Positions 1 through 5,672 of a DNA stretch of 5,672 nt are shown piece by piece. Source of the stretch: Candidatus Hydrogenedens sp. (GTDB taxonomy: Bacteria > Hydrogenedentota > Hydrogenedentia > Hydrogenedentales > Hydrogenedentaceae); the NCBI GenBank assembly GCA_049968235.1, contig JBMFRC010000041.1, positions 1 through 5,672 of the forward strand, in the 5' to 3' direction. A model generated the notes under the pieces. The model was given only the letters and a program-made list of their open reading frames with translations, did not search any database and was not told the DNA's origin. The position numbers were made by a program, and so were the translations under genes. Within the stretch, counting starts at the first letter, position 1. Every line of letters begins with the position of its first letter.

Positions 1-43
1 ATTTATGCTGAAAAAAATATTTTAAAATTTTTTCATAAAATGC

Positions 44-75
44 TTGACATATGAAAAAAAATGCTAAACTATAGG
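44..75 (+). promoter_or_regulatory. candidate sigma70-like promoter upstream of the cys-rich gene
   Basis: There is a perfect TTGACA -35 hexamer at 44-49. Downstream lies TGcTAAACT at 62-70, which resembles an extended -10, and TATAGG at 70-75 is an alternative -10. Spacing is suboptimal for either. The direct repeat AAAATGCT occurs at 37-44 and 58-65, 21 bp apart, flanking the -35. An AAGGGA Shine-Dalgarno site at 131-136 lies 7 nt before the ATG at 144. Confidence 0.3.
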
Positions 76-143
76 TATTGGAAAGTTGAATAACGAAAGT
101 AGTAGTCAATCAAACCAGAAGCATCAAAATAAGGGAACCTGCC

Positions 144-620
144 ATGCATATCACAAACTTCATCAAAAATTACCCTTGTATACTACTTACATTATTACTA
201 ACCTTAATATCTCCTTTATTTATTTTGAGCGAAACAAAAGTATATGCGTCTACAAAAAATCCTAAAAGCGGAGAATGCGATTGTATTTCTCAAACATCAT
301 GTCCTTATAATTTAACATATGCTATATATGGACTGGAAGGCTTTAAATGTGGACTTATAAATAATCATTGTAAGTGTAATGGTCCAGATCCTCTCAAACA
401 TTGTTCTTACCCAAAAGCAGAACTATGTGCCCCTACATCCGGAGGTTGTAGTTGTAGTAATGATTGCATGCCATCAGATTGTCCCAGGCCATGTTACCCT
501 TCTTCATGTGAAGGATGTAAGGAATACCAATTAAGTACTATTCCCTGTTCAGGGACTCCTGAACCAGGAAATTGTGGAAGATGTAATTACAAATTCAAAC
601 AACCAGGATGCGGACAATAA
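144..620 (+). CDS. small cysteine-rich secreted protein (hypothetical)
   Basis: Complete ORF of 158 aa. An AAGGGA Shine-Dalgarno site lies 7 nt upstream. The N-terminus has a long hydrophobic stretch (ILLTLLLTLISPLFIL) followed by VYA-ST, consistent with a Sec signal peptide. The mature part of about 123 aa contains 19 cysteines (about 15%) in CxC and CxxC arrangements: CDC, CKC, CSC, CEGC and CGRC. I recognise no known family. The stop at 618-620 abuts the next gene. Confidence 0.7.
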   Translation: MHITNFIKNYPCILLTLLLTLISPLFILSETKVYASTKNPKSGECDCISQTSCPYNLTYAIYGLEGFKCGLINNHCKCNGPDPLKHCSYPKAELCAPTSGGCSCSNDCMPSDCPRPCYPSSCEGCKEYQLSTIPCSGTPEPGNCGRCNYKFKQPGCGQ

Positions 621-651
621 CAATGCTATATTAATAGTAAAGAAAAATAAT

Positions 652-2034
652 ATGGAAGTATACAAAAAATTACTTTTTATAGGATTGATATTTTATAGTT
701 CCCTATTTGCACATAGTTTAGAAATATATGAAGTATCTCGGGACAGCCAGGAAGTAAAGAACTTAATCCGTATTGTGAAAACGAGATTTAATGTCTTTTC
801 GTTGAAATGTAATTATACCTCTATTGTTGATGAGGAACCATACATTTCTTATTTTGAAGATAAATATGGGAAATCTATACTTGATGAAAAAAAAGAACAA
901 GCACTATCCATAAAAAATTTTGAATTTGTCTTTCAAAAAGGGAATTTTGTCCGTATTCAAACATATACACCTCCAATAAAAAAATTATCAACAATTGATA
1001 AGCCTAGAAACTTGATAGAATTATTATCTCAAAAATTTACAACTTATCAGCAGGATAGTAATCAGGATAAATTGTTTCAAACTATAAATTATTTTTACAA
1101 CGAGGAATTAAAAACAAGGGATTACTACTATGATAGTATGCTAAATAAATATGCTTATTGGGAGTGTGCACATGACAATGAAGATATGGATCCATATACT
1201 CTTGACCCTCGTATCTGCATTGGACTATGTTCTGGAACCGCGTTTAATTGGGGAAATCTTTGGCCAAAAGAGGGCTTATTTTTCTTTATTGAAGAATTCT
1301 TAGAGAAAGAGGGGATTTTTTTCTATTGTGAAGAAGAATATAAAATTTTTTGGCATTATGTAGTATATGAACATAAAACAAAGTATAAACATGAATCTAA
1401 TTTCAGTTTCTTAGACCCCATTGGTATTGAAATATGGGTTGATAAAAATGAAAACATTTCAAAAATTGCATGTATGTTTTATCCTTGTCGTATTTTAGGA
1501 CTCCAGGAAGTAAAACAAATTATTAATAAAGATACAGAAATAACATATAACACTCCAAGTATTTTATATTGGGAATATCAGTATCAAAACTATAAAGAAT
1601 TCGAAAGTGGAATACGGATTCCGCTAAAAACTACGGTTTTACAATATTCTTTTGATAATGATAATCCATGTTTTCAATCTATTGTAAAAAAATATTTTGA
1701 CACCATTAACAAAACAAAAAATGAAATGGACATAATTAAATATCGTACAGAATTGAGTGCTTGTAATGATATATCTTTTCTATCAAGAAAAATAGAACTC
1801 ACTATATATCCAGAATCAGTAATTGTAAACAAACTAATACCGGAGGAAACATTTATCGCCCCTAAACCTGATATCTCTTTATTCAAAAATATAAATGAAG
1901 CAGAACAGTTTAAAAATAGTATAGAAAGAAACAATTCTTCTTTCCCTTCATATTTGATTTTATCTTTATTTGGTTTAATCATTATTCTTTTTTTAACTTT
2001 CCTTACATATAAATTTTGGAGATGGAGTATTTAA
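652..2034 (+). CDS. hypothetical exported protein with N-terminal signal peptide and C-terminal transmembrane anchor
   Basis: The ORF is open from 574 to 2034. The ATG at 652 is preferred as the start because it yields a classic signal peptide (MEVYKKLLFIGLIFYSSLFAHS) and avoids a 47-nt out-of-frame overlap with the upstream gene. The C-terminus is a hydrophobic helix (YLILSLFGLIIILFLTFLTY) followed by KFWRW. The ectodomain is rich in Tyr, Lys, Glu and Asn with scattered Cys and Trp, and I recognise no domain. There is no Shine-Dalgarno site, but the start lies 31 nt after the upstream stop, which suggests translational coupling within an operon. Confidence 0.7.
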   Translation: MEVYKKLLFIGLIFYSSLFAHSLEIYEVSRDSQEVKNLIRIVKTRFNVFSLKCNYTSIVDEEPYISYFEDKYGKSILDEKKEQALSIKNFEFVFQKGNFVRIQTYTPPIKKLSTIDKPRNLIELLSQKFTTYQQDSNQDKLFQTINYFYNEELKTRDYYYDSMLNKYAYWECAHDNEDMDPYTLDPRICIGLCSGTAFNWGNLWPKEGLFFFIEEFLEKEGIFFYCEEEYKIFWHYVVYEHKTKYKHESNFSFLDPIGIEIWVDKNENISKIACMFYPCRILGLQEVKQIINKDTEITYNTPSILYWEYQYQNYKEFESGIRIPLKTTVLQYSFDNDNPCFQSIVKKYFDTINKTKNEMDIIKYRTELSACNDISFLSRKIELTIYPESVIVNKLIPEETFIAPKPDISLFKNINEAEQFKNSIERNNSSFPSYLILSLFGLIIILFLTFLTYKFWRWSI

Positions 2035-2095
2035 TACATAAGAGATAGTTGAAGAATTCCATTAGAAAAAAAAATGAAAAGGGCTTTCAATAAAG

Positions 2096-2437
2096 ATGTT
2101 TCCTTTTATTAAAATATCGACATATTTTGCAGAATTTTACAACATTTTTAATTTTCTTGCGGTGTTTGTTATTGTTTTATTAGGTGTTCGGTGGAATTAT
2201 AGGTATGGGAAGAAATATCCCTTAAGATTGGGGATGTTGCTTCTGTCAGCACCGTTTGCTTTTCTGATTGACAGGATATTTTTCTTTCTTTTCCTTGCCC
2301 GTCCTTCTTCTAAGATGCAGTTTTTTAATCTGGAGAGAGGGGGAAGTATGTTTTTAGGAGCCTTTACAGGGGCTGTCTTTGGGGCTTTCATCTATAATGT
2401 TTGGGTACATTATGTATATTTTCCGATTTTATCCTGA
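2096..2437 (+). CDS. lgt: Lgt-like (prolipoprotein diacylglyceryl transferase) N-terminal fragment, probably truncated or a pseudogene
   Basis: The 113-aa polytopic membrane ORF resembles Lgt N-terminal regions. It begins FPF near the N-terminus; DRIFFFLFLA compares with ARIYYVLFEW or GRIGYVLFYNF in Lgt, and LERGGSMFLGAFTGAVFGAFIY compares with [22 protein letters not shown]. Spacing between these segments fits Lgt. However, the conserved WYG motif and the His in the GG-x-x-HGG segment are replaced. The ORF stops at about 40% of normal Lgt length. No Lgt-like continuation, including the GRxGNFxNxExxG signature, is found in the three + frames checked downstream. This is recall-based similarity, not a database search. 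Confidence 0.5.
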   Translation: MFPFIKISTYFAEFYNIFNFLAVFVIVLLGVRWNYRYGKKYPLRLGMLLLSAPFAFLIDRIFFFLFLARPSSKMQFFNLERGGSMFLGAFTGAVFGAFIYNVWVHYVYFPILS

Positions 2438-2458
2438 CGGATATATATGGACACATGT

Positions 2459-2474
2459 AAATCTGCAGATTTTT
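2459..2474 (+). terminator. weak palindromic hairpin plus T-run after the lgt-like ORF
   Basis: AAATCTGCAGATTT is a perfect palindrome that can form a short AT-rich stem with a TGCA loop, followed by TT. The stem is weak (about 5 bp, AU-rich) and the U-tract overlaps the stem, so terminator function is doubtful. Confidence 0.15.
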
Positions 2475-2634
2475 CAGAGAGAATGATTATTCGTACTTAT
2501 ATACTCATATTTTTTTATGAAACACAATGGTTCTTATATAAAACCTTCAAATTACCTTATTAAACAAAAAAAATACACAGAACCTAAATAATTTAAAATA
2601 CTGAATATCGTGTAACCATCTCTGCAAAAAAAGA

Positions 2635-2732
2635 GCGGGAACCGCATGGTTTCGCTGTTTATTAGCGGGCTATACCCGTAGCCCGTATAGTCCTGTTCGG
2701 GACTTTGTCGAAACTCTTATAGCAGTTCCCGC
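2635..2732. ncRNA. candidate structured RNA or GC-rich multi-stem element (unclassified)
   Basis: This 98-nt island is markedly more GC-rich than its flanks. Four stems are directly visible. The outer stem is GCGGGAAC (2635-2642) paired with GTTCCCGC (2725-2732), 8 bp. The inner stem is GTTTCG (2649-2654) paired with CGAAAC (2709-2714), 6 bp. Hairpin A is GCGGGCTA (2665-2672) paired with TAGCCCGT (2679-2686), 8 bp including one G-U, with loop TACCCG. Hairpin B is AGTCC (2689-2693) paired with GGACT (2700-2704), 5 bp, with loop TGTTCG. The result is a closed three-way junction inside a stacked outer helix. No ORF covers it. The transcribed strand and the family are unknown. Confidence 0.3.
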
Positions 2733-3068
2733 AAAACTTGTAAAGGCTTTTAACAAACCTTCGTATTCAATTTTCTAATAAAATTATGACACAAAAATAA
2801 AAAAAATGCAAGCAGTTTTTAAAATTTTTTATTCCCAGACTTATTCTTCATCAAAAAGACCTATTGTCCCCAATGATTTTGTATTTCCGAAAGAATTAAC
2901 TCGATTATATCTATCAAAACTTCCTATAGCACTATCACGGTTTCTTGATGGTCCCAAAAAATTCGGAGCATTATAATTATAGTTATTAAGGTTTTCCAAA
3001 GGGTTAGGAATCTTTGTTAAATCATTAATTCTATCTTCAATAGATGGTAGTTTCCAATTATTTTCCCT

Positions 3069-3130
3069 TTCACAATATTTATTATTATAATATACTATTA
3101 TAAATAAATAGAATTTATTTGCAAAAGGAG
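3069..3130 (+). promoter_or_regulatory. candidate promoter and ribosome-binding site for the large surface-protein gene
   Basis: TTCACA at 3069-3074 matches 5 of 6 positions of the -35 consensus. A 16-nt spacer precedes TATACT at 3091-3096, and an alternative TATAAT lies at 3086-3091. A strong Shine-Dalgarno site, AAGGAG at 3125-3130, sits 8 nt upstream of the ATG at 3139. The AT-rich context makes many alternative -10 elements possible. Confidence 0.3.
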
Positions 3131-3138
3131 TTTTGGCA

Positions 3139-5672
3139 ATGAAAAATAAACTGTTTATTTTAATTACATTTTTTATCTTTCTTCTACCCATTACTTCTTA
3201 CCCACTCGTTTGGGAATTTAATGCTGATGAAGGTTGGTCCGCAGGAAGTAATGTGGCAAATTTGCAAACCACAGGGGGATATTTATCTTTCGATACAACA
3301 GGGAGTGACCCAAGTGTTTATACACCTGATAATTTAGGTGTTACTGGTTCCAATTTTCGATTTATACATTTTGATATGGAGTTAAGTGCAACACCGACAC
3401 AAGGTGGACAAATTTATTTCATTACGAATGCAGATGGAGGTTGGGGAGAAGATAAAGTCATATACTTCTCTCCTACGGCAGGTAGAAACACTTATCTTAT
3501 TAATGTTCCCCAAACTATGTCAGCCAATGGAAAAGACCCGAATAAATGGTTGGGGCAAACAATAAAAAGATTAAGATTTGACCCTCCGAACAATTACATT
3601 GGAAATGTAAAAATCTACTGGTTTGGTATCACATTCGGCAGTAATTCACGCGGTGCTGTTTGGGATTTCGAAACAAACGGTGATTTTGAAGGCTGGGGTG
3701 GATTCAGTTGTGCTTCAGGACAACAGGTTACAGGCGGTTACTTAACTTTCAATTTTATCTGTACCGACCCCTTTGTATACTCCCCAAATGATTTAAGAAT
3801 CAGTGGCTCTGATTATCCATGGCTACAGGCGGATATTGAATATACTGCAAGTTATAACGACACTTTTCAGATTTTCTTCATAACAAACATGGATGGAAAT
3901 TGGACTGAAGGGAAATCTATAACTTTCCCCGGAAGAGTAGGTAGATTTACCTATTTAGTCAATATTCCACAAAGGTTAACTGAAAACAGCAAAGACCCTA
4001 ACACCTGGAACGGAAAAACAATAATGCAAATCCGGTTCGATACAGGTGGACAATCATCTGGTAGTGTCAAAATCCACTGGATAGGTATCCGTCGTGAGCC
4101 TATTCCCGATTGGCAATTCGATGTCGGTGACCATAAACAAGGCTGGACTGCTGTAAACCAAATATCAAATCTGACTGTAAGTAGTGGTGCTCTTAGTTGT
4201 AATACCACAGGGGGTGACCCATATATACAAGTTTACAACCAACATTTTAACCCTTCTACATATCGCTATTTATTAGTCCGTGCCAATATTACAAACTACG
4301 AGAATGATAACCCGGGAATTATGCAAACTTTCGGCTTCCCCGGAACCGGCGGAACAGGATATGTTAATAAAGACTACTATTTCTACCCCAACAATGGTTA
4401 TCAATGCATTCTCGTTGATATGGGAACACGCACTACTAACTCTTCCTGGTTAGGGGCTCCAGGAACTATTTCTTCCTTCCGCATTGACCCTGCAACTGTG
4501 AATACCTCTGCTACTTTCTATTATGACTATATTAAGTTATATGATTCATCCTCTCTACCTGCAGGTCCGTATAATTGGGACTTCTCAACTGCCGGAAACA
4601 ATAATTTATCCGGAAATAACTGCGGTAGTTGGGTTTCTGCCCGGCATTCACCCTATAGCGGAACTTCATTGAGTATTGCCAGTAATGTAGGTATCATAAC
4701 CGGCACCGGAACACTCGGAATAGAAAACCTCGGCTTTGCTGTAGGAAATACTTCCGCTTATCAATGGGTTCAAATTGATGTGAATCCATCTACACAAACA
4801 GATAGAAATGATTTGACTTTCCGTTATTTATGGAGAAAGGATGGACTTCGGTTAGGCGATGATTACAACACGCGAAGAAAATGGATTATTCCAACCAATA
4901 AAGGAATAAAACGCTATAATTTTTATCTCCCATACATTGCAGACCAGGATACAAACCATAATGGTACATGGGATGGCATCCCCCATGGAATATTACTCCA
5001 ATTTGGTGAAGGAGAAGCAGGTATTAATTCTATTACTATTGATAATTTCAACCTTCTTTCCTCTGCAAGCGTTCCTGCACCATCTGTATCTGAAGTTAAA
5101 GTTTCAGGAACAAGAACTGTCGATGTTTCCTTTACAAATCAAATGGATTCCAGCACCATTACTGCCTCAATGTTTACAATTTCAGGAACAGGAAGAGGCA
5201 CCTTAGGAGCAAATCCTTTCAGCGTTACATATCTTACAGGACATACTTATCGTTTGACCTGGATTGCAGGAGAAATGCGTGACGGTAGCGATATTACCAT
5301 AACTGTATCGAATTCTGTACAAGACGCTGCAGGAAGAAATTTAACATCTCCCACAAGCGGAACTCATACCGGTGGTGGTATAAAAATAGATGCCCCTACT
5401 GTCTCTGCTGTAACCTCTCCCGCTTTTGCAAATACATTGCCCATAACAATTAGTTATACGGGTGCTGCAGACAATACAAGCAATGTTAGTAGCATAGAAC
5501 TATGGGCTAAAAAAGGTTCCGAAGGAACCTGGGCTTTTACAGGTCAAACATCTGTTTCTGCCCCCAATGGAAGTATCAATTTCAATAGTCCCACAGGAGA
5601 AGATACATACTACTTTGATGTTGTGGTAATTGATGGTGCCGGTAATCGGAGCGATACTCCTACGGGAAATGG
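3139..5672 (+). CDS. large secreted repetitive surface protein (adhesin or glycan-binding-like), 3' partial and continuing beyond the window
   Basis: The frame is open from the ATG at 3139 to the window end, so at least 844 codons, and it has an optimal Shine-Dalgarno site. The N-terminus MKNKLFILITFFIFLLPITSYP is a typical signal peptide. There are four tandem modules of about 140-160 aa. Each begins with a W-(E/D)-F motif and ends with a segment such as IYWFGI, IHWIGI, IKLY or IDNFNL. Modules 1 and 2 are clearly homologous (GGYLSFDTTGSDPSVYTPDNL compares with GGYLTFNFICTDPFVYSPNDL, and GRNTYLINVPQ...KDPNKW...RFD compares with GRFTYLVNIPQ...KDPNTW...RFD). These are followed by at least two Ig-like modules of about 100 aa (for example TYYFDVVVIDGAGNRS). 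The composition is rich in Gly, Thr, Ser and Asn. The C-terminal sorting signal cannot be seen. Confidence 0.85.
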   Translation, partial: MKNKLFILITFFIFLLPITSYPLVWEFNADEGWSAGSNVANLQTTGGYLSFDTTGSDPSVYTPDNLGVTGSNFRFIHFDMELSATPTQGGQIYFITNADGGWGEDKVIYFSPTAGRNTYLINVPQTMSANGKDPNKWLGQTIKRLRFDPPNNYIGNVKIYWFGITFGSNSRGAVWDFETNGDFEGWGGFSCASGQQVTGGYLTFNFICTDPFVYSPNDLRISGSDYPWLQADIEYTASYNDTFQIFFITNMDGNWTEGKSITFPGRVGRFTYLVNIPQRLTENSKDPNTWNGKTIMQIRFDTGGQSSGSVKIHWIGIRREPIPDWQFDVGDHKQGWTAVNQISNLTVSSGALSCNTTGGDPYIQVYNQHFNPSTYRYLLVRANITNYENDNPGIMQTFGFPGTGGTGYVNKDYYFYPNNGYQCILVDMGTRTTNSSWLGAPGTISSFRIDPATVNTSATFYYDYIKLYDSSSLPAGPYNWDFSTAGNNNLSGNNCGSWVSARHSPYSGTSLSIASNVGIITGTGTLGIENLGFAVGNTSAYQWVQIDVNPSTQTDRNDLTFRYLWRKDGLRLGDDYNTRRKWIIPTNKGIKRYNFYLPYIADQDTNHNGTWDGIPHGILLQFGEGEAGINSITIDNFNLLSSASVPAPSVSEVKVSGTRTVDVSFTNQMDSSTITASMFTISGTGRGTLGANPFSVTYLTGHTYRLTWIAGEMRDGSDITITVSNSVQDAAGRNLTSPTSGTHTGGGIKIDAPTVSAVTSPAFANTLPITISYTGAADNTSNVSSIELWAKKGSEGTWAFTGQTSVSAPNGSINFNSPTGEDTYYFDVVVIDGAGNRSDTPTGN
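3208..5055 (+). repeat. intragenic tandem domain duplication (four modules, R1 to R4) at protein level
   Basis: R1 is 3208-3630, R2 is 3658-4089, R3 is 4108-4542 and R4 is 4570-5055. R1 and R2 share an estimated 35-40% identity judged by eye across the full module. R3 and R4 are more divergent but keep the W-x-F ... GW ... GDP start and the hydrophobic end motif. The DNA-level repeat is weak; the duplication is ancient. Confidence 0.55.

What the first reader, a model, noticed from the sequence alone, without database searches (positions are those of the whole stretch)
2635..2732. 98-nt GC-rich cloverleaf-like structured element in the long intergenic region
In roughly 25% GC surroundings, this island forms four perfectly or near-perfectly complementary stems: an 8-bp outer stem, a 6-bp inner stem, and two terminal hairpins of 8 and 5 bp. 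They arrange as a closed three-way junction, with about 27 of 49 possible nested pairs. This density of nested complementarity is unlikely by chance. I can assign it to no ncRNA class; I tested tRNA, tRNA-Sec, SRP RNA and common riboswitch consensuses by eye. It could be a small regulatory RNA, a 5'-UTR element of the downstream surface-protein gene, or a mobile-element or recombination DNA site.
Basis: seen in the sequence. Interest (0 to 1): 0.65.

Follow-up and report, generated by a model that had tools for sequence, protein, structure and literature searches.

The report
Conserved small RNA gene in Hydrogenedens
The GC-rich folded island is real and is the core of a roughly 150-base, single-copy small RNA gene on the opposite strand, with its own promoter-like box and terminator-like end, found only in a narrow group of uncultured Hydrogenedens bacteria and matching no catalogued RNA family; its function is still unknown.

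Summary
Window 2635-2732 folds into a Y-shaped three-way junction far better than shuffled sequence (z -5.1 on +, -6.6 on -) and is about 48-50% GC against 19-31% GC flanks.

It is best read on the minus strand, as the core of a transcript of about 150 nt (about 2776 to 2626). In order, the unit has:
- a conserved extended -10 promoter-like box (TTGCAT, 17 nt, TGnCATAAT);
- a 5' hairpin domain;
- the 98-nt core;
- a U-tract directly after the closing helix P1.

I found nine distinct homologues in Candidatus Hydrogenedens-type MAGs and metagenomes, one copy per genome or contig. The core stays 90-98% identical while flanks drop to about 52%. Conservation ends exactly at the U-tract.

All 30 core pairs are kept in every sequence. 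Substitutions fall mainly in unpaired positions (Fisher p=0.004). Only one pair, in P1, shows a compensatory change, so covariation support is thin.

Neighbouring genes differ between genomes. That argues against a 5'-UTR of the surface-protein gene, a 3'-UTR element, a riboswitch or a dispersed repeat. Rfam 15, ARAGORN, and the phage, plasmid and viral collections give nothing.

Verdict: a new, lineage-restricted, free-standing structured sRNA of unknown function. Interest is moderate to low.

The parts
2806..2811 (-). -35-like hexamer TTGCAT (TTGCTT in L035)
   Evidence: It sits 17 nt upstream of the -10 box in all 9 distinct homologues. Promoter function is inferred from consensus and conservation only.
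2783..2791 (-). Extended -10 box TGtCATAAT
   Evidence: TGnCATAAT is invariant in all 9 homologues and lies 50-56 nt upstream of the core. The consensus scan picks the same box in L041. In L024 and L038 the nearest upstream gene is on the opposite strand, so the box belongs to the RNA.
2733..2776 (-). 5' domain of the predicted transcript. The TSS is inferred at about 2776/2775. It holds an invariant UUGAAUA (2770->2764), hairpin P0 (2761->2743: AAGGUUU / GUUAA / AAGCCUU), and a possible outer helix AAAAUU/AGUUUU.
   Evidence: P0 forms in all 9 sequences although its inner stem and loop sequences differ. RNAalifold predicts P0 plus an enclosing helix, with one-sided changes and changes on both sides. 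The TSS is inferred, not measured.
2635..2732 (-). RNA position n corresponds to window 2733-n.
- P1: 2732-2722 with 2645-2635
- Internal loop UAUAAGA: 2721-2715
- P2: 2714-2709 with 2654-2649
- J2/4 ACAA: 2708-2705
- P4 hairpin: 2704-2689 (loop CGAACA)
- P3 hairpin: 2685-2666 (loop CGGGUA)
- J3/2: 2665-2655
   Evidence: Fold statistics are. It is 90-98% identical across homologues while flanks are about 52%. All 30 pairs are 100% paired in 9 sequences. In P1, G10-C89 becomes A-U in 2 sequences, U9.G90 becomes U-A in 3, and G4-C95 becomes G.U in 1.
2626..2634 (-). U-tract (UCUUUUUUU) directly after the 3' strand of P1; putative intrinsic-terminator tail and 3' end
   Evidence: At least 6 T are present in all 9 homologues, and sequence identity collapses immediately after it. 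Termination is inferred.

Best explanation
The element is the structured core of a free-standing small RNA gene on the minus strand, about 150 nt long (window about 2776 to 2626).

Proposed mechanism:
- Transcription starts from a conserved extended -10 promoter (TTGCAT, 17 nt, TGnCATAAT).
- The RNA first forms a 5' stem-loop domain.
- It then forms hairpins P4 and P3, which P2 closes into a three-way junction.
- Last, the 11-bp GC-rich helix P1 closes. Its 3' strand is followed at once by a run of U, so P1 closure most likely doubles as the intrinsic terminator and defines the 3' end.

The gene is single-copy and restricted to a narrow clade of Candidatus Hydrogenedens-type bacteria. It keeps its sequence while the neighbouring genes change, so it acts in trans rather than on an adjacent gene.

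The highly structured core is far more conserved than the 5' domain: helices P2-P4, loop L4 and junction J2/4 are invariant. I therefore think the more likely mode is a protein-binding or scaffold RNA, in the manner of 6S, Y or SRP-type RNAs. A classic seed-pairing sRNA, possibly using the invariant UUGAAUA, is the second choice.

Shown: the fold, the conservation pattern, copy number, variable context and absence from Rfam.
Inferred: transcription, strand, transcript ends, and mode of action.
For: Fold: z -5.1 and -6.6, with no shuffle as good. The full 155-nt minus-strand transcript folds at -51.6 kcal/mol, z -4.5.

Homologues: 9 distinct sequences from 14 loci beside the window. They came from orthologous loci, a metagenome scan and a scan of GTDB species representatives. 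Each has one copy.

Conservation block, in minus-strand order:
- promoter plus 5' domain, 66-85% identical;
- core, 90-98% identical;
- U-tract;
- then a drop to 51-54% identity.

Promoter-like box: TGnCATAAT with TTGC(A/T)T 17 nt upstream is invariant in all 9. It is present where the nearest upstream gene is on the opposite strand (L024 and L038).

Structure: 30 of 30 core pairs are paired in all sequences. P1 shows one compensatory and two wobble-compatible changes. Variable sites are 4 of 60 paired positions against 11 of 38 unpaired positions, Fisher p=0.004. The 5' hairpin P0 is kept with different sequences.

Context: neighbouring genes vary. The upstream gene is a 299-aa orphan, PHO4, Hsp20 (divergent) or an acyltransferase-like gene (divergent). 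The downstream gene is on the opposite strand in most loci.

No known family: Rfam 15 at gathering score and at E<=10; ARAGORN.
Against: There are no expression data, so promoter, TSS, terminator and strand are all inferred from sequence.

Base pairing alone does not fix the strand. The plus strand's own MFE structure is also 98.2% paired across the homologues.

Covariation is thin. There is one pair with changes on both sides (two sequences), and 17 of 500 column shuffles reach the observed score. Helices P2-P4 never vary, which says nothing for or against pairing.

The family is shallow, with 9 closely related sequences, so high identity partly reflects short divergence times.

A helix that closes a 76-nt branched insert is an atypical intrinsic terminator, and the consensus scan did not call one.

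In 3 of 9 lineages a co-directional operon follows 120-170 nt downstream.
Confidence: 0.7

Rival explanations
1. Cis-regulatory leader or riboswitch. The Y-shaped junction would be a ligand-binding aptamer, and ligand-stabilised P1 plus the U-tract would terminate transcription ahead of a downstream DUF6141 / NupC-type nucleoside transporter / ThiD / LexA gene cluster.
For: In L035, L036 and L041 the RNA lies 120-170 nt upstream of exactly this cluster, on the same strand. Three-way-junction aptamers followed by a terminator are the classic riboswitch layout. L036 carries both the upstream 299-aa gene and the downstream cluster, so this arrangement may be ancestral.
Against: In 6 of 9 lineages (window, L003, L005, L008, L010, L038) no co-directional gene follows. 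The RNA and its promoter are nevertheless 97-98% and about 80% conserved, while the sequence just past the U-tract has decayed to about 52% identity.

In L035 and L041 the gap contains a separate TGtTATAAT box directly in front of the DUF6141 gene.

No alternative anti-terminator pairing is evident. There is no Rfam riboswitch hit at E<=10.
Confidence: 0.1
2. An RNA on the plus strand, as the reader implicitly drew it, for example an antisense or 3'-extended transcript.
For: The plus strand folds equally well (-42.8 kcal/mol, z -5.1). Its MFE structure is 98.2% paired across the homologues.
Against: Conservation stops at 2625, which is where a plus-strand promoter would be. It continues for about 80 nt on the other side, into a box that reads as TGnCATAAT only on the minus strand.

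The T-run follows the structure only on the minus strand.

The U9.G90 wobble (6 of 9 sequences) and the G4.U95 wobble (1 of 9) become C-A and A-C mismatches on the plus strand. The mirrored structure is 97.5% paired against 100%.
Confidence: 0.07
3. 3'-UTR structure or elaborate terminator of the upstream co-directional gene, the 299-aa secreted orphan protein. The window keeps only a remnant of that gene, at 2841-3191 on the minus strand.
For: In the window, L003, L005-L011 and L036 the RNA lies 100-110 nt downstream of that gene's stop codon, on the same strand. The whole interval is conserved.
Against: L024/L041 and L038 have the RNA and its promoter box but no co-directional upstream gene. 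L035 has a different upstream gene, PHO4.

In the window the upstream gene has lost its N-terminal three quarters, yet the RNA is intact.

The RNA core is 98% identical where the adjacent coding sequence is 77-78%.
Confidence: 0.05
4. A DNA-level site such as a cruciform or single-strand hairpin used for recombination, integration or replication, or the relic of a mobile element.
For: The element is palindrome-rich and folds on both strands. Sequence downstream of it differs between lineages. The compensatory change would also preserve a DNA hairpin.
Against: It is single-copy per genome. No integrase or transposase lies next to it; the nearest, a transposase-like ORF in L035, is about 2.4 kb away and absent elsewhere.

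Phage, plasmid and viral collections gave nothing.

The arms are GCGGGAAC/GTTCCCGC, which do not fit the attC R''/R' consensus (RYYYAAC/GTTRRRY). This is read from the sequence, with the consensus recalled from memory.

The adjacent promoter-like box, the structurally conserved but sequence-variable 5' hairpin, and the U-tract fit a transcript better. Wobble pairs are used in P1.
Confidence: 0.05

Closest known systems
Free-standing bacterial sRNA genes with sigma-70-type promoters and Rho-independent terminators (generic class, e.g. Hfq-associated sRNAs)
   Same: It is a compact unit of about 150 nt in an intergenic region. It has its own conserved promoter-like box, ends in a GC-rich helix plus U-tract, is single-copy and is lineage-restricted. 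It also carries an invariant short single-stranded motif (UUGAAUA) that could serve as a seed.
   Different: The terminal helix is not a simple hairpin but closes a 76-nt three-way junction. The structured core, not a seed, is the most conserved part. No chaperone or target is known, and expression has not been shown.
Structured protein-binding housekeeping RNAs (6S RNA, bacterial Y RNA/YrlA, 4.5S SRP RNA)
   Same: It is a single-copy gene with its own promoter. The helices and loops are very strongly conserved in sequence in an otherwise fast-evolving AT-rich genome. The size range is 100-180 nt.
   Different: No Rfam model for these families matches, even at E<=10. The fold is a Y on a stalk plus a separate 5' hairpin. 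It is not the long rod with a central bubble of 6S. The SRP domain-IV motif (GGAA loop, AGCA/GGA loops) is absent. The window and the neighbouring genes that were annotated show no rsr/Ro gene, though most related loci were not fully annotated.
Three-way-junction riboswitch aptamers with terminator expression platforms (e.g. purine riboswitch RF00167)
   Same: It has a three-way junction with two hairpin arms, conserved junction nucleotides, and a U-tract after the closing helix. In 3 lineages it lies upstream of a nucleoside-transporter operon.
   Different: There is no sequence or structure match in Rfam. P1 is 11 bp plus an internal loop plus P2, rather than a short P1 directly at the junction. 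No anti-terminator is evident. Most members have no downstream co-directional gene.

Membership tests
Any Rfam 15 family (4227 covariance models) | Score at or above the family's gathering threshold | tested here: not met
   The whole window gave 0 matches at gathering score. At E<=10 nothing overlapped the element in 2400-3150 except an L20-leader match at E=6.3. In 2620-2780 the only hits were ArcZ (12.4 bits against a threshold of 66) and Hairpin ribozyme (11 bits against 65), which is noise.
tRNA / tmRNA | Cloverleaf with anticodon arm and T-loop, or a tmRNA tag | tested here: not met
   ARAGORN found 0 genes in the window. The fold has three helices at the junction, not four.
Riboswitch / cis-regulatory 5' leader | Consistently located in the 5' UTR of a co-directional downstream gene | tested here: not met
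   Only 3 of 9 lineages have a co-directional downstream gene, and in two of these that gene has its own -10 box in the gap.
Riboswitch / cis-regulatory 5' leader | Ligand-dependent structural switch (aptamer versus expression platform) | not testable with these tools
   This needs in-line probing or ITC. No alternative anti-terminator pairing was seen by inspection.
Free-standing sRNA gene | Own promoter, independent of neighbouring genes | tested here: met
   TTGC(A/T)T, 17 nt, TGnCATAAT is invariant in 9 of 9. It is present where the nearest upstream gene is on the opposite strand. This is sequence evidence only.
Free-standing sRNA gene | Defined 3' end: GC-rich helix followed by a U-tract | tested here: inconclusive
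   An 11-bp P1 followed by at least 6 U is present in 9 of 9, and conservation ends there. However, the helix closes a branched 76-nt insert, and the consensus terminator scan does not call it.
Free-standing sRNA gene | A discrete transcript detected | not testable with these tools
   No transcriptome data are available here.
Conserved structured RNA (general) | Compensatory base changes supporting the helices | tested here: inconclusive
   All cells are paired (100%). One pair has changes on both sides and two pairs have wobble-compatible changes, all in P1. P2-P4 are invariant. 17 of 500 shuffles reach the observed score. The paired versus unpaired substitution bias gives p=0.004.
REP / MITE-like dispersed repeat | Many copies per genome | tested here: not met
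   Each of the 4 species-representative genomes had one hit, and each metagenome contig had one. A CM search of 291 kb found only the known single copies. There is no second copy in the window.
Integron attC site | R''/R' core sites RYYYAAC ... GTTRRRY, arrayed next to an integron integrase | tested here: not met
   The arms are GCGGGAAC/GTTCCCGC (RRR and YYY are swapped). The element is single rather than arrayed, and no integrase lies in any locus examined. The consensus was recalled from memory.
6S RNA | Long irregular rod of about 180 nt whose 5' and 3' ends pair around a central bubble | tested here: not met
   The predicted fold is a separate 5' hairpin domain plus a 3' Y-shaped domain. 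No 6S or 6S-Flavo hit appears in Rfam.

The most novel reading that the evidence does not exclude
The RNA is the founding member of a new functional class specific to Hydrogenedentota. It would be either the RNA subunit or sequestering partner of a still unidentified protein, or a new ligand-sensing or self-processing fold. In that case the invariant internal loop (UAUAAGA), J2/4 (ACAA) and L4 (CGAACA) would form a functional core. Nothing here excludes this, because no known family matches and the helices and loops are invariant at the sequence level.
Probability: 0.12. Interest if true: 0.65.

Novelty: new member of a known kind. Interest (0 to 1): 0.38.

Why it matters
Hydrogenedentota is an uncultured candidate phylum, and two full-text literature searches turned up no description of its non-coding RNAs. 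This locus gives a concrete small RNA with well-bounded ends predicted from sequence, a covariance model (R1), and nine homologues. It can be looked for directly in digester or activated-sludge metatranscriptomes. The RNA is one of the most conserved non-coding sequences in these AT-rich genomes, staying 90-98% identical where neighbouring coding DNA is about 77% identical or unalignable. That suggests a function under strong selection. Beyond that it is one more lineage-specific sRNA candidate of unknown function, which is useful for annotation but not surprising.

Tried and rejected
- tRNA or tmRNA: ARAGORN found 0 genes.
- Known RNA families: nothing in Rfam at gathering score or at E<=10 on three different spans. 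The weak ArcZ, Hairpin-ribozyme and L20-leader rows are far below threshold.
- Phage or plasmid origin: blastn in distant mode found nothing relevant. Three viral-contig scans found nothing real; L049 and L050 are the same chance matches as L012 and L033.
- Synteny through the 460-aa neighbour: that protein is an orphan with no homologue besides itself.
- Surface-protein orthologue L002 and the distant homologue loci L046-L048: no copy of the RNA.
- L004, holding the 63%-identical homologue of the upstream gene: the contig ends 69 nt after the stop codon. It shows only a diverged promoter and leader-like stretch, and the core lies off the contig.
- Kissing or pseudoknot ideas (L3 CGGG with CCCG of P4/L4; L3 with J3/2; L4 with the P0 loop): the variants in L024 and L035 break them without compensation, by inspection of A2/A3.
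- K-turn or loop-E reading of the P1/P2 internal loop: the required G.A pairs are absent, by inspection.
- Using base pairing to fix the strand: not decisive.
- 18 of 22 metagenome hits and 8 of 12 genome hits to the degenerate patterns were chance matches in unrelated, mostly coding sequence.
- Literature: two full-text terms, 'Hydrogenedentes' and 'small RNA', gave nothing relevant.

Full report
**1. The observation**

The 98-nt stretch 2635-2732 reads GCGGGAACCGCATGGTTTCGCTGTTTATTAGCGGGCTATACCCGTAGCCCGTATAGTCCTGTTCGGGACTTTGTCGAAACTCTTATAGCAGTTCCCGC.

RNAfold gives these results:
- Plus strand: -42.8 kcal/mol, z -5.12, no shuffle of 200 as stable.
- Minus strand: -42.2 kcal/mol, z -6.59, no shuffle of 200 as stable.

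Both folds are a closing helix, an inner helix, and two hairpins around a three-way junction. GC content is 0.46-0.48 over the element against 0.19-0.31 in the flanks. The shape is a Y on a stalk rather than a cloverleaf.

**2. Known classes**

- ARAGORN finds no tRNA or tmRNA.
- Rfam 15 finds nothing at gathering score in the whole window.
- Rfam finds nothing meaningful at E<=10 on 2400-3150 or on 2620-2780.
- Blastn against phage and plasmid collections finds nothing relevant.
- The window holds no second copy.

**3. Source and homologues**

Window 1-3807 is 99.8% identical to part of contig JBMFLO010000181.1 of GCA_049971155.1, a Candidatus Hydrogenedens sp. MAG. The element is identical there.

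The 460-aa neighbour protein is an orphan, so it gave no route to related loci. The downstream surface protein has orthologues:
- L002, 69% identical, lacks the element.
- L003, 73% identical, carries it.

In L003 a 299-aa secreted orphan gene ends just before the element, on the strand that corresponds to the window's minus strand. The window's 116-aa minus-strand ORF (2841-3191) is the C-terminal 74-aa remnant of that gene, at 66% identity.

Homologues of the 299-aa protein led to L005-L011. All of these carry the element immediately downstream, on the same strand as that gene.

Two degenerate-pattern scans added further members:
- Metagenome scan: L024, from activated sludge.
- Scan of GTDB species representatives: L035, L036, L038 and L041.

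All other pattern hits were chance matches. In total there are nine distinct sequences, always one per contig or genome. A covariance model (R1) searched over 291 kb of held loci finds only those copies.

**4. Anatomy on the minus strand**

Alignments show one conserved block. Read 5' to 3' on the minus strand it contains:
- TTGCAT (2811-2806);
- a 17-nt spacer;
- TGtCATAAT (2791-2783);
- about 7 nt to a likely start at A2776 or G2775;
- a 5' domain with an invariant UUGAAUA (2770-2764) and hairpin P0 (2761-2743);
- the 98-nt core (2732-2635);
- UCUUUUUUU (2634-2626).

Past the U-tract, identity falls to 51-54%, which is the background level for these AT-rich sequences. Against that, identity to the window is 90-98% for the core and 66-85% for the promoter plus 5' domain. 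The adjacent coding DNA is 77-78% identical to the window in the closest loci.

The extended -10 box and the -35-like hexamer are present in all nine sequences at a fixed spacing. That includes L024 and L038, where the nearest upstream gene is on the opposite strand. The unit therefore carries its own promoter-like signal and is not simply the tail of the upstream gene.

**5. Structure support**

With RNA numbering n = 2733 - window coordinate, the core is:

| Element | RNA positions |
|---|---|
| P1 | 1-11 / 88-98 |
| Internal loop | 12-18 |
| P2 | 19-24 / 79-84, plus G17-C85 |
| J2/4 | 25-28 |
| P4 | 29-33 / 40-44 (L4 CGAACA) |
| P3 | 48-54 / 61-67 (L3 CGGGUA) |
| J3/2 | 68-78 |

All 30 pairs are standard pairs in all 9 sequences. 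All the variation in paired positions lies in P1:
- G10-C89 becomes A-U in two sequences.
- U9.G90 becomes U-A in three.
- G4-C95 becomes G.U in one.

P2-P4 never vary. The shuffle control is only mildly exceeded (17 of 500), so covariation alone is weak evidence.

Substitutions avoid paired positions: 4 of 60 paired positions vary against 11 of 38 unpaired positions, Fisher p=0.004.

The 5' hairpin P0 is maintained with different inner-stem and loop sequences in each lineage. That is what an RNA-level constraint predicts.

**6. Strand**

Pairing alone does not settle the strand. The plus strand's own MFE structure is 98.2% paired across the homologues, while the minus-strand structure is 100% paired.

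The minus strand is chosen for four reasons:
- The promoter-like box reads correctly only on that strand.
- The U-tract follows the closing helix only there.
- The conserved block is asymmetric. It runs about 80 nt beyond the core on the 2733+ side and stops within 10 nt on the 2634 side.
- The wobble pairs in P1 become C-A mismatches on the plus strand.

**7. Context and what it excludes**

Neighbouring genes differ between lineages.

| Side | Neighbours seen |
|---|---|
| Upstream | 299-aa orphan (window clade, L036); PHO4/PhoU (L035); divergent Hsp20 genes (L024/L041); a divergent acyltransferase-like gene (L038) |
| Downstream | Opposite-strand genes in the window clade and L038; a co-directional DUF6141 / NupC-type transporter / ThiD / LexA cluster in L035, L036 and L041 |

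The co-directional cluster raises a riboswitch or leader reading, but three points count against it:
- Six of nine lineages lack any co-directional downstream gene, yet they keep the RNA and its promoter intact.
- The sequence beyond the U-tract has decayed.
- In L035 and L041 the gap holds a separate TGtTATAAT box directly before the DUF6141 gene.

The 5'-UTR-of-surface-protein idea fails on strand, on L002, and on the unrelated contexts. The repeat or mobile-element idea fails on copy number and on the absence from viral, phage and plasmid data.

**8. Mechanism proposed**

Shown:
- a single-copy, strongly conserved, structured non-coding block;
- promoter-like and terminator-like signals on the minus strand;
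- independence from neighbouring genes.

Inferred:
- It is transcribed as an RNA of about 150 nt.
- P4 and P3 fold first, P2 closes the junction, and P1 closure in front of the U-tract ends transcription.
- The RNA acts in trans.

The structured core, including helix sequences, L4, J2/4 and the internal loop, is much more conserved than the 5' domain. I therefore favour a protein-binding or scaffold role over seed-pairing. The invariant single-stranded UUGAAUA keeps seed-pairing open. I could not identify a partner or target.

**9. Comparison and novelty**

The unit works like an ordinary free-standing bacterial sRNA gene with a promoter, a structured body, a GC-rich helix and a U-tail. In its conservation pattern it resembles protein-binding housekeeping RNAs. 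It meets none of the tested membership criteria for Rfam families, tRNA, 6S, SRP, riboswitch leaders, REP/MITE repeats or attC sites.

It is best filed as a new, lineage-restricted member of the known kind 'structured small RNA gene'. A literature search found no description of it.

**10. Limits**

- The most divergent candidate, L004, is cut off before the core.
- No transcript data exist here.

Noticed in passing
window 2841-3191 (-): The 116-aa ORF is only the C-terminal 74 aa (66% identity) of a 299-aa secreted orphan protein that is intact in L003, L005, L010 and L011. The N-terminal part is missing, and the ORF overlaps the start of the surface-protein gene at 3139. It is probably a decaying gene remnant.
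   Followed up: partly
L041 (CAZJTZ010000010.1, titled 'uncultured Nitrospirales bacterium'): It carries the same RNA sequence as L024. It also has the same DUF6141-NupC gene order downstream of the RNA as the Ca. Hydrogenedens contig L035, and shares the full DUF6141-NupC-ThiD-LexA order with L036. The contig, or the bin's label, is probably misassigned.
   Followed up: no
L035 2832-3013 (-), L041 570-727 (+): A conserved TGtTATAAT extended -10 box and a GGAG ribosome-binding site lie directly upstream of the DUF6141 gene, in the gap after the RNA's U-tract. The 28-nt segment that holds them is absent in L036.
   Followed up: partly
L003 9110-11891 (+): The surface-protein orthologue appears split into three consecutive ORFs (9110-9757, 9759-9938, 10001-end). 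This suggests frameshifts or assembly errors at its 5' end.
   Followed up: no
window 3808-5672 versus GCA_049971155.1: The window continues 1865 nt beyond the end of the matching NCBI contig (L001). In that assembly the remainder of the surface-protein gene sits on a separate 1906-nt contig (P0002). The window therefore comes from a different, more contiguous assembly of a near-identical strain. Three of the five mismatches and both gaps lie within the first 60 nt.
   Followed up: partly
window 144-620 (+) and 652-2034 (+): These are a 158-aa cysteine-rich protein with a signal-peptide-like N-terminus and a 460-aa protein. Neither has a Pfam domain. For the 460-aa protein the only match among 5.8 billion sequences is the identical gene call (P0001, 486 aa); the 158-aa protein was not searched.
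   Followed up: partly
window 2096-2437 (+): A 113-aa hydrophobic ORF has a sub-threshold match (E=0.005, 16.7 bits against a cutoff of 24.9) to the N-terminal 100 positions of prolipoprotein diacylglyceryl transferase (Lgt). It is either a truncated lgt or an unrelated small membrane protein.
   Followed up: no
L004 3389-3457 (+): Downstream of the most divergent (63% identical) homologue of the 299-aa gene there is a diverged version of the promoter and leader (TTTTTGTATTCAATATCTAAAGG...ATGAATTATAAAC). The contig ends before the core. It would be the most informative homologue for covariation if it could be extended.
   Followed up: partly
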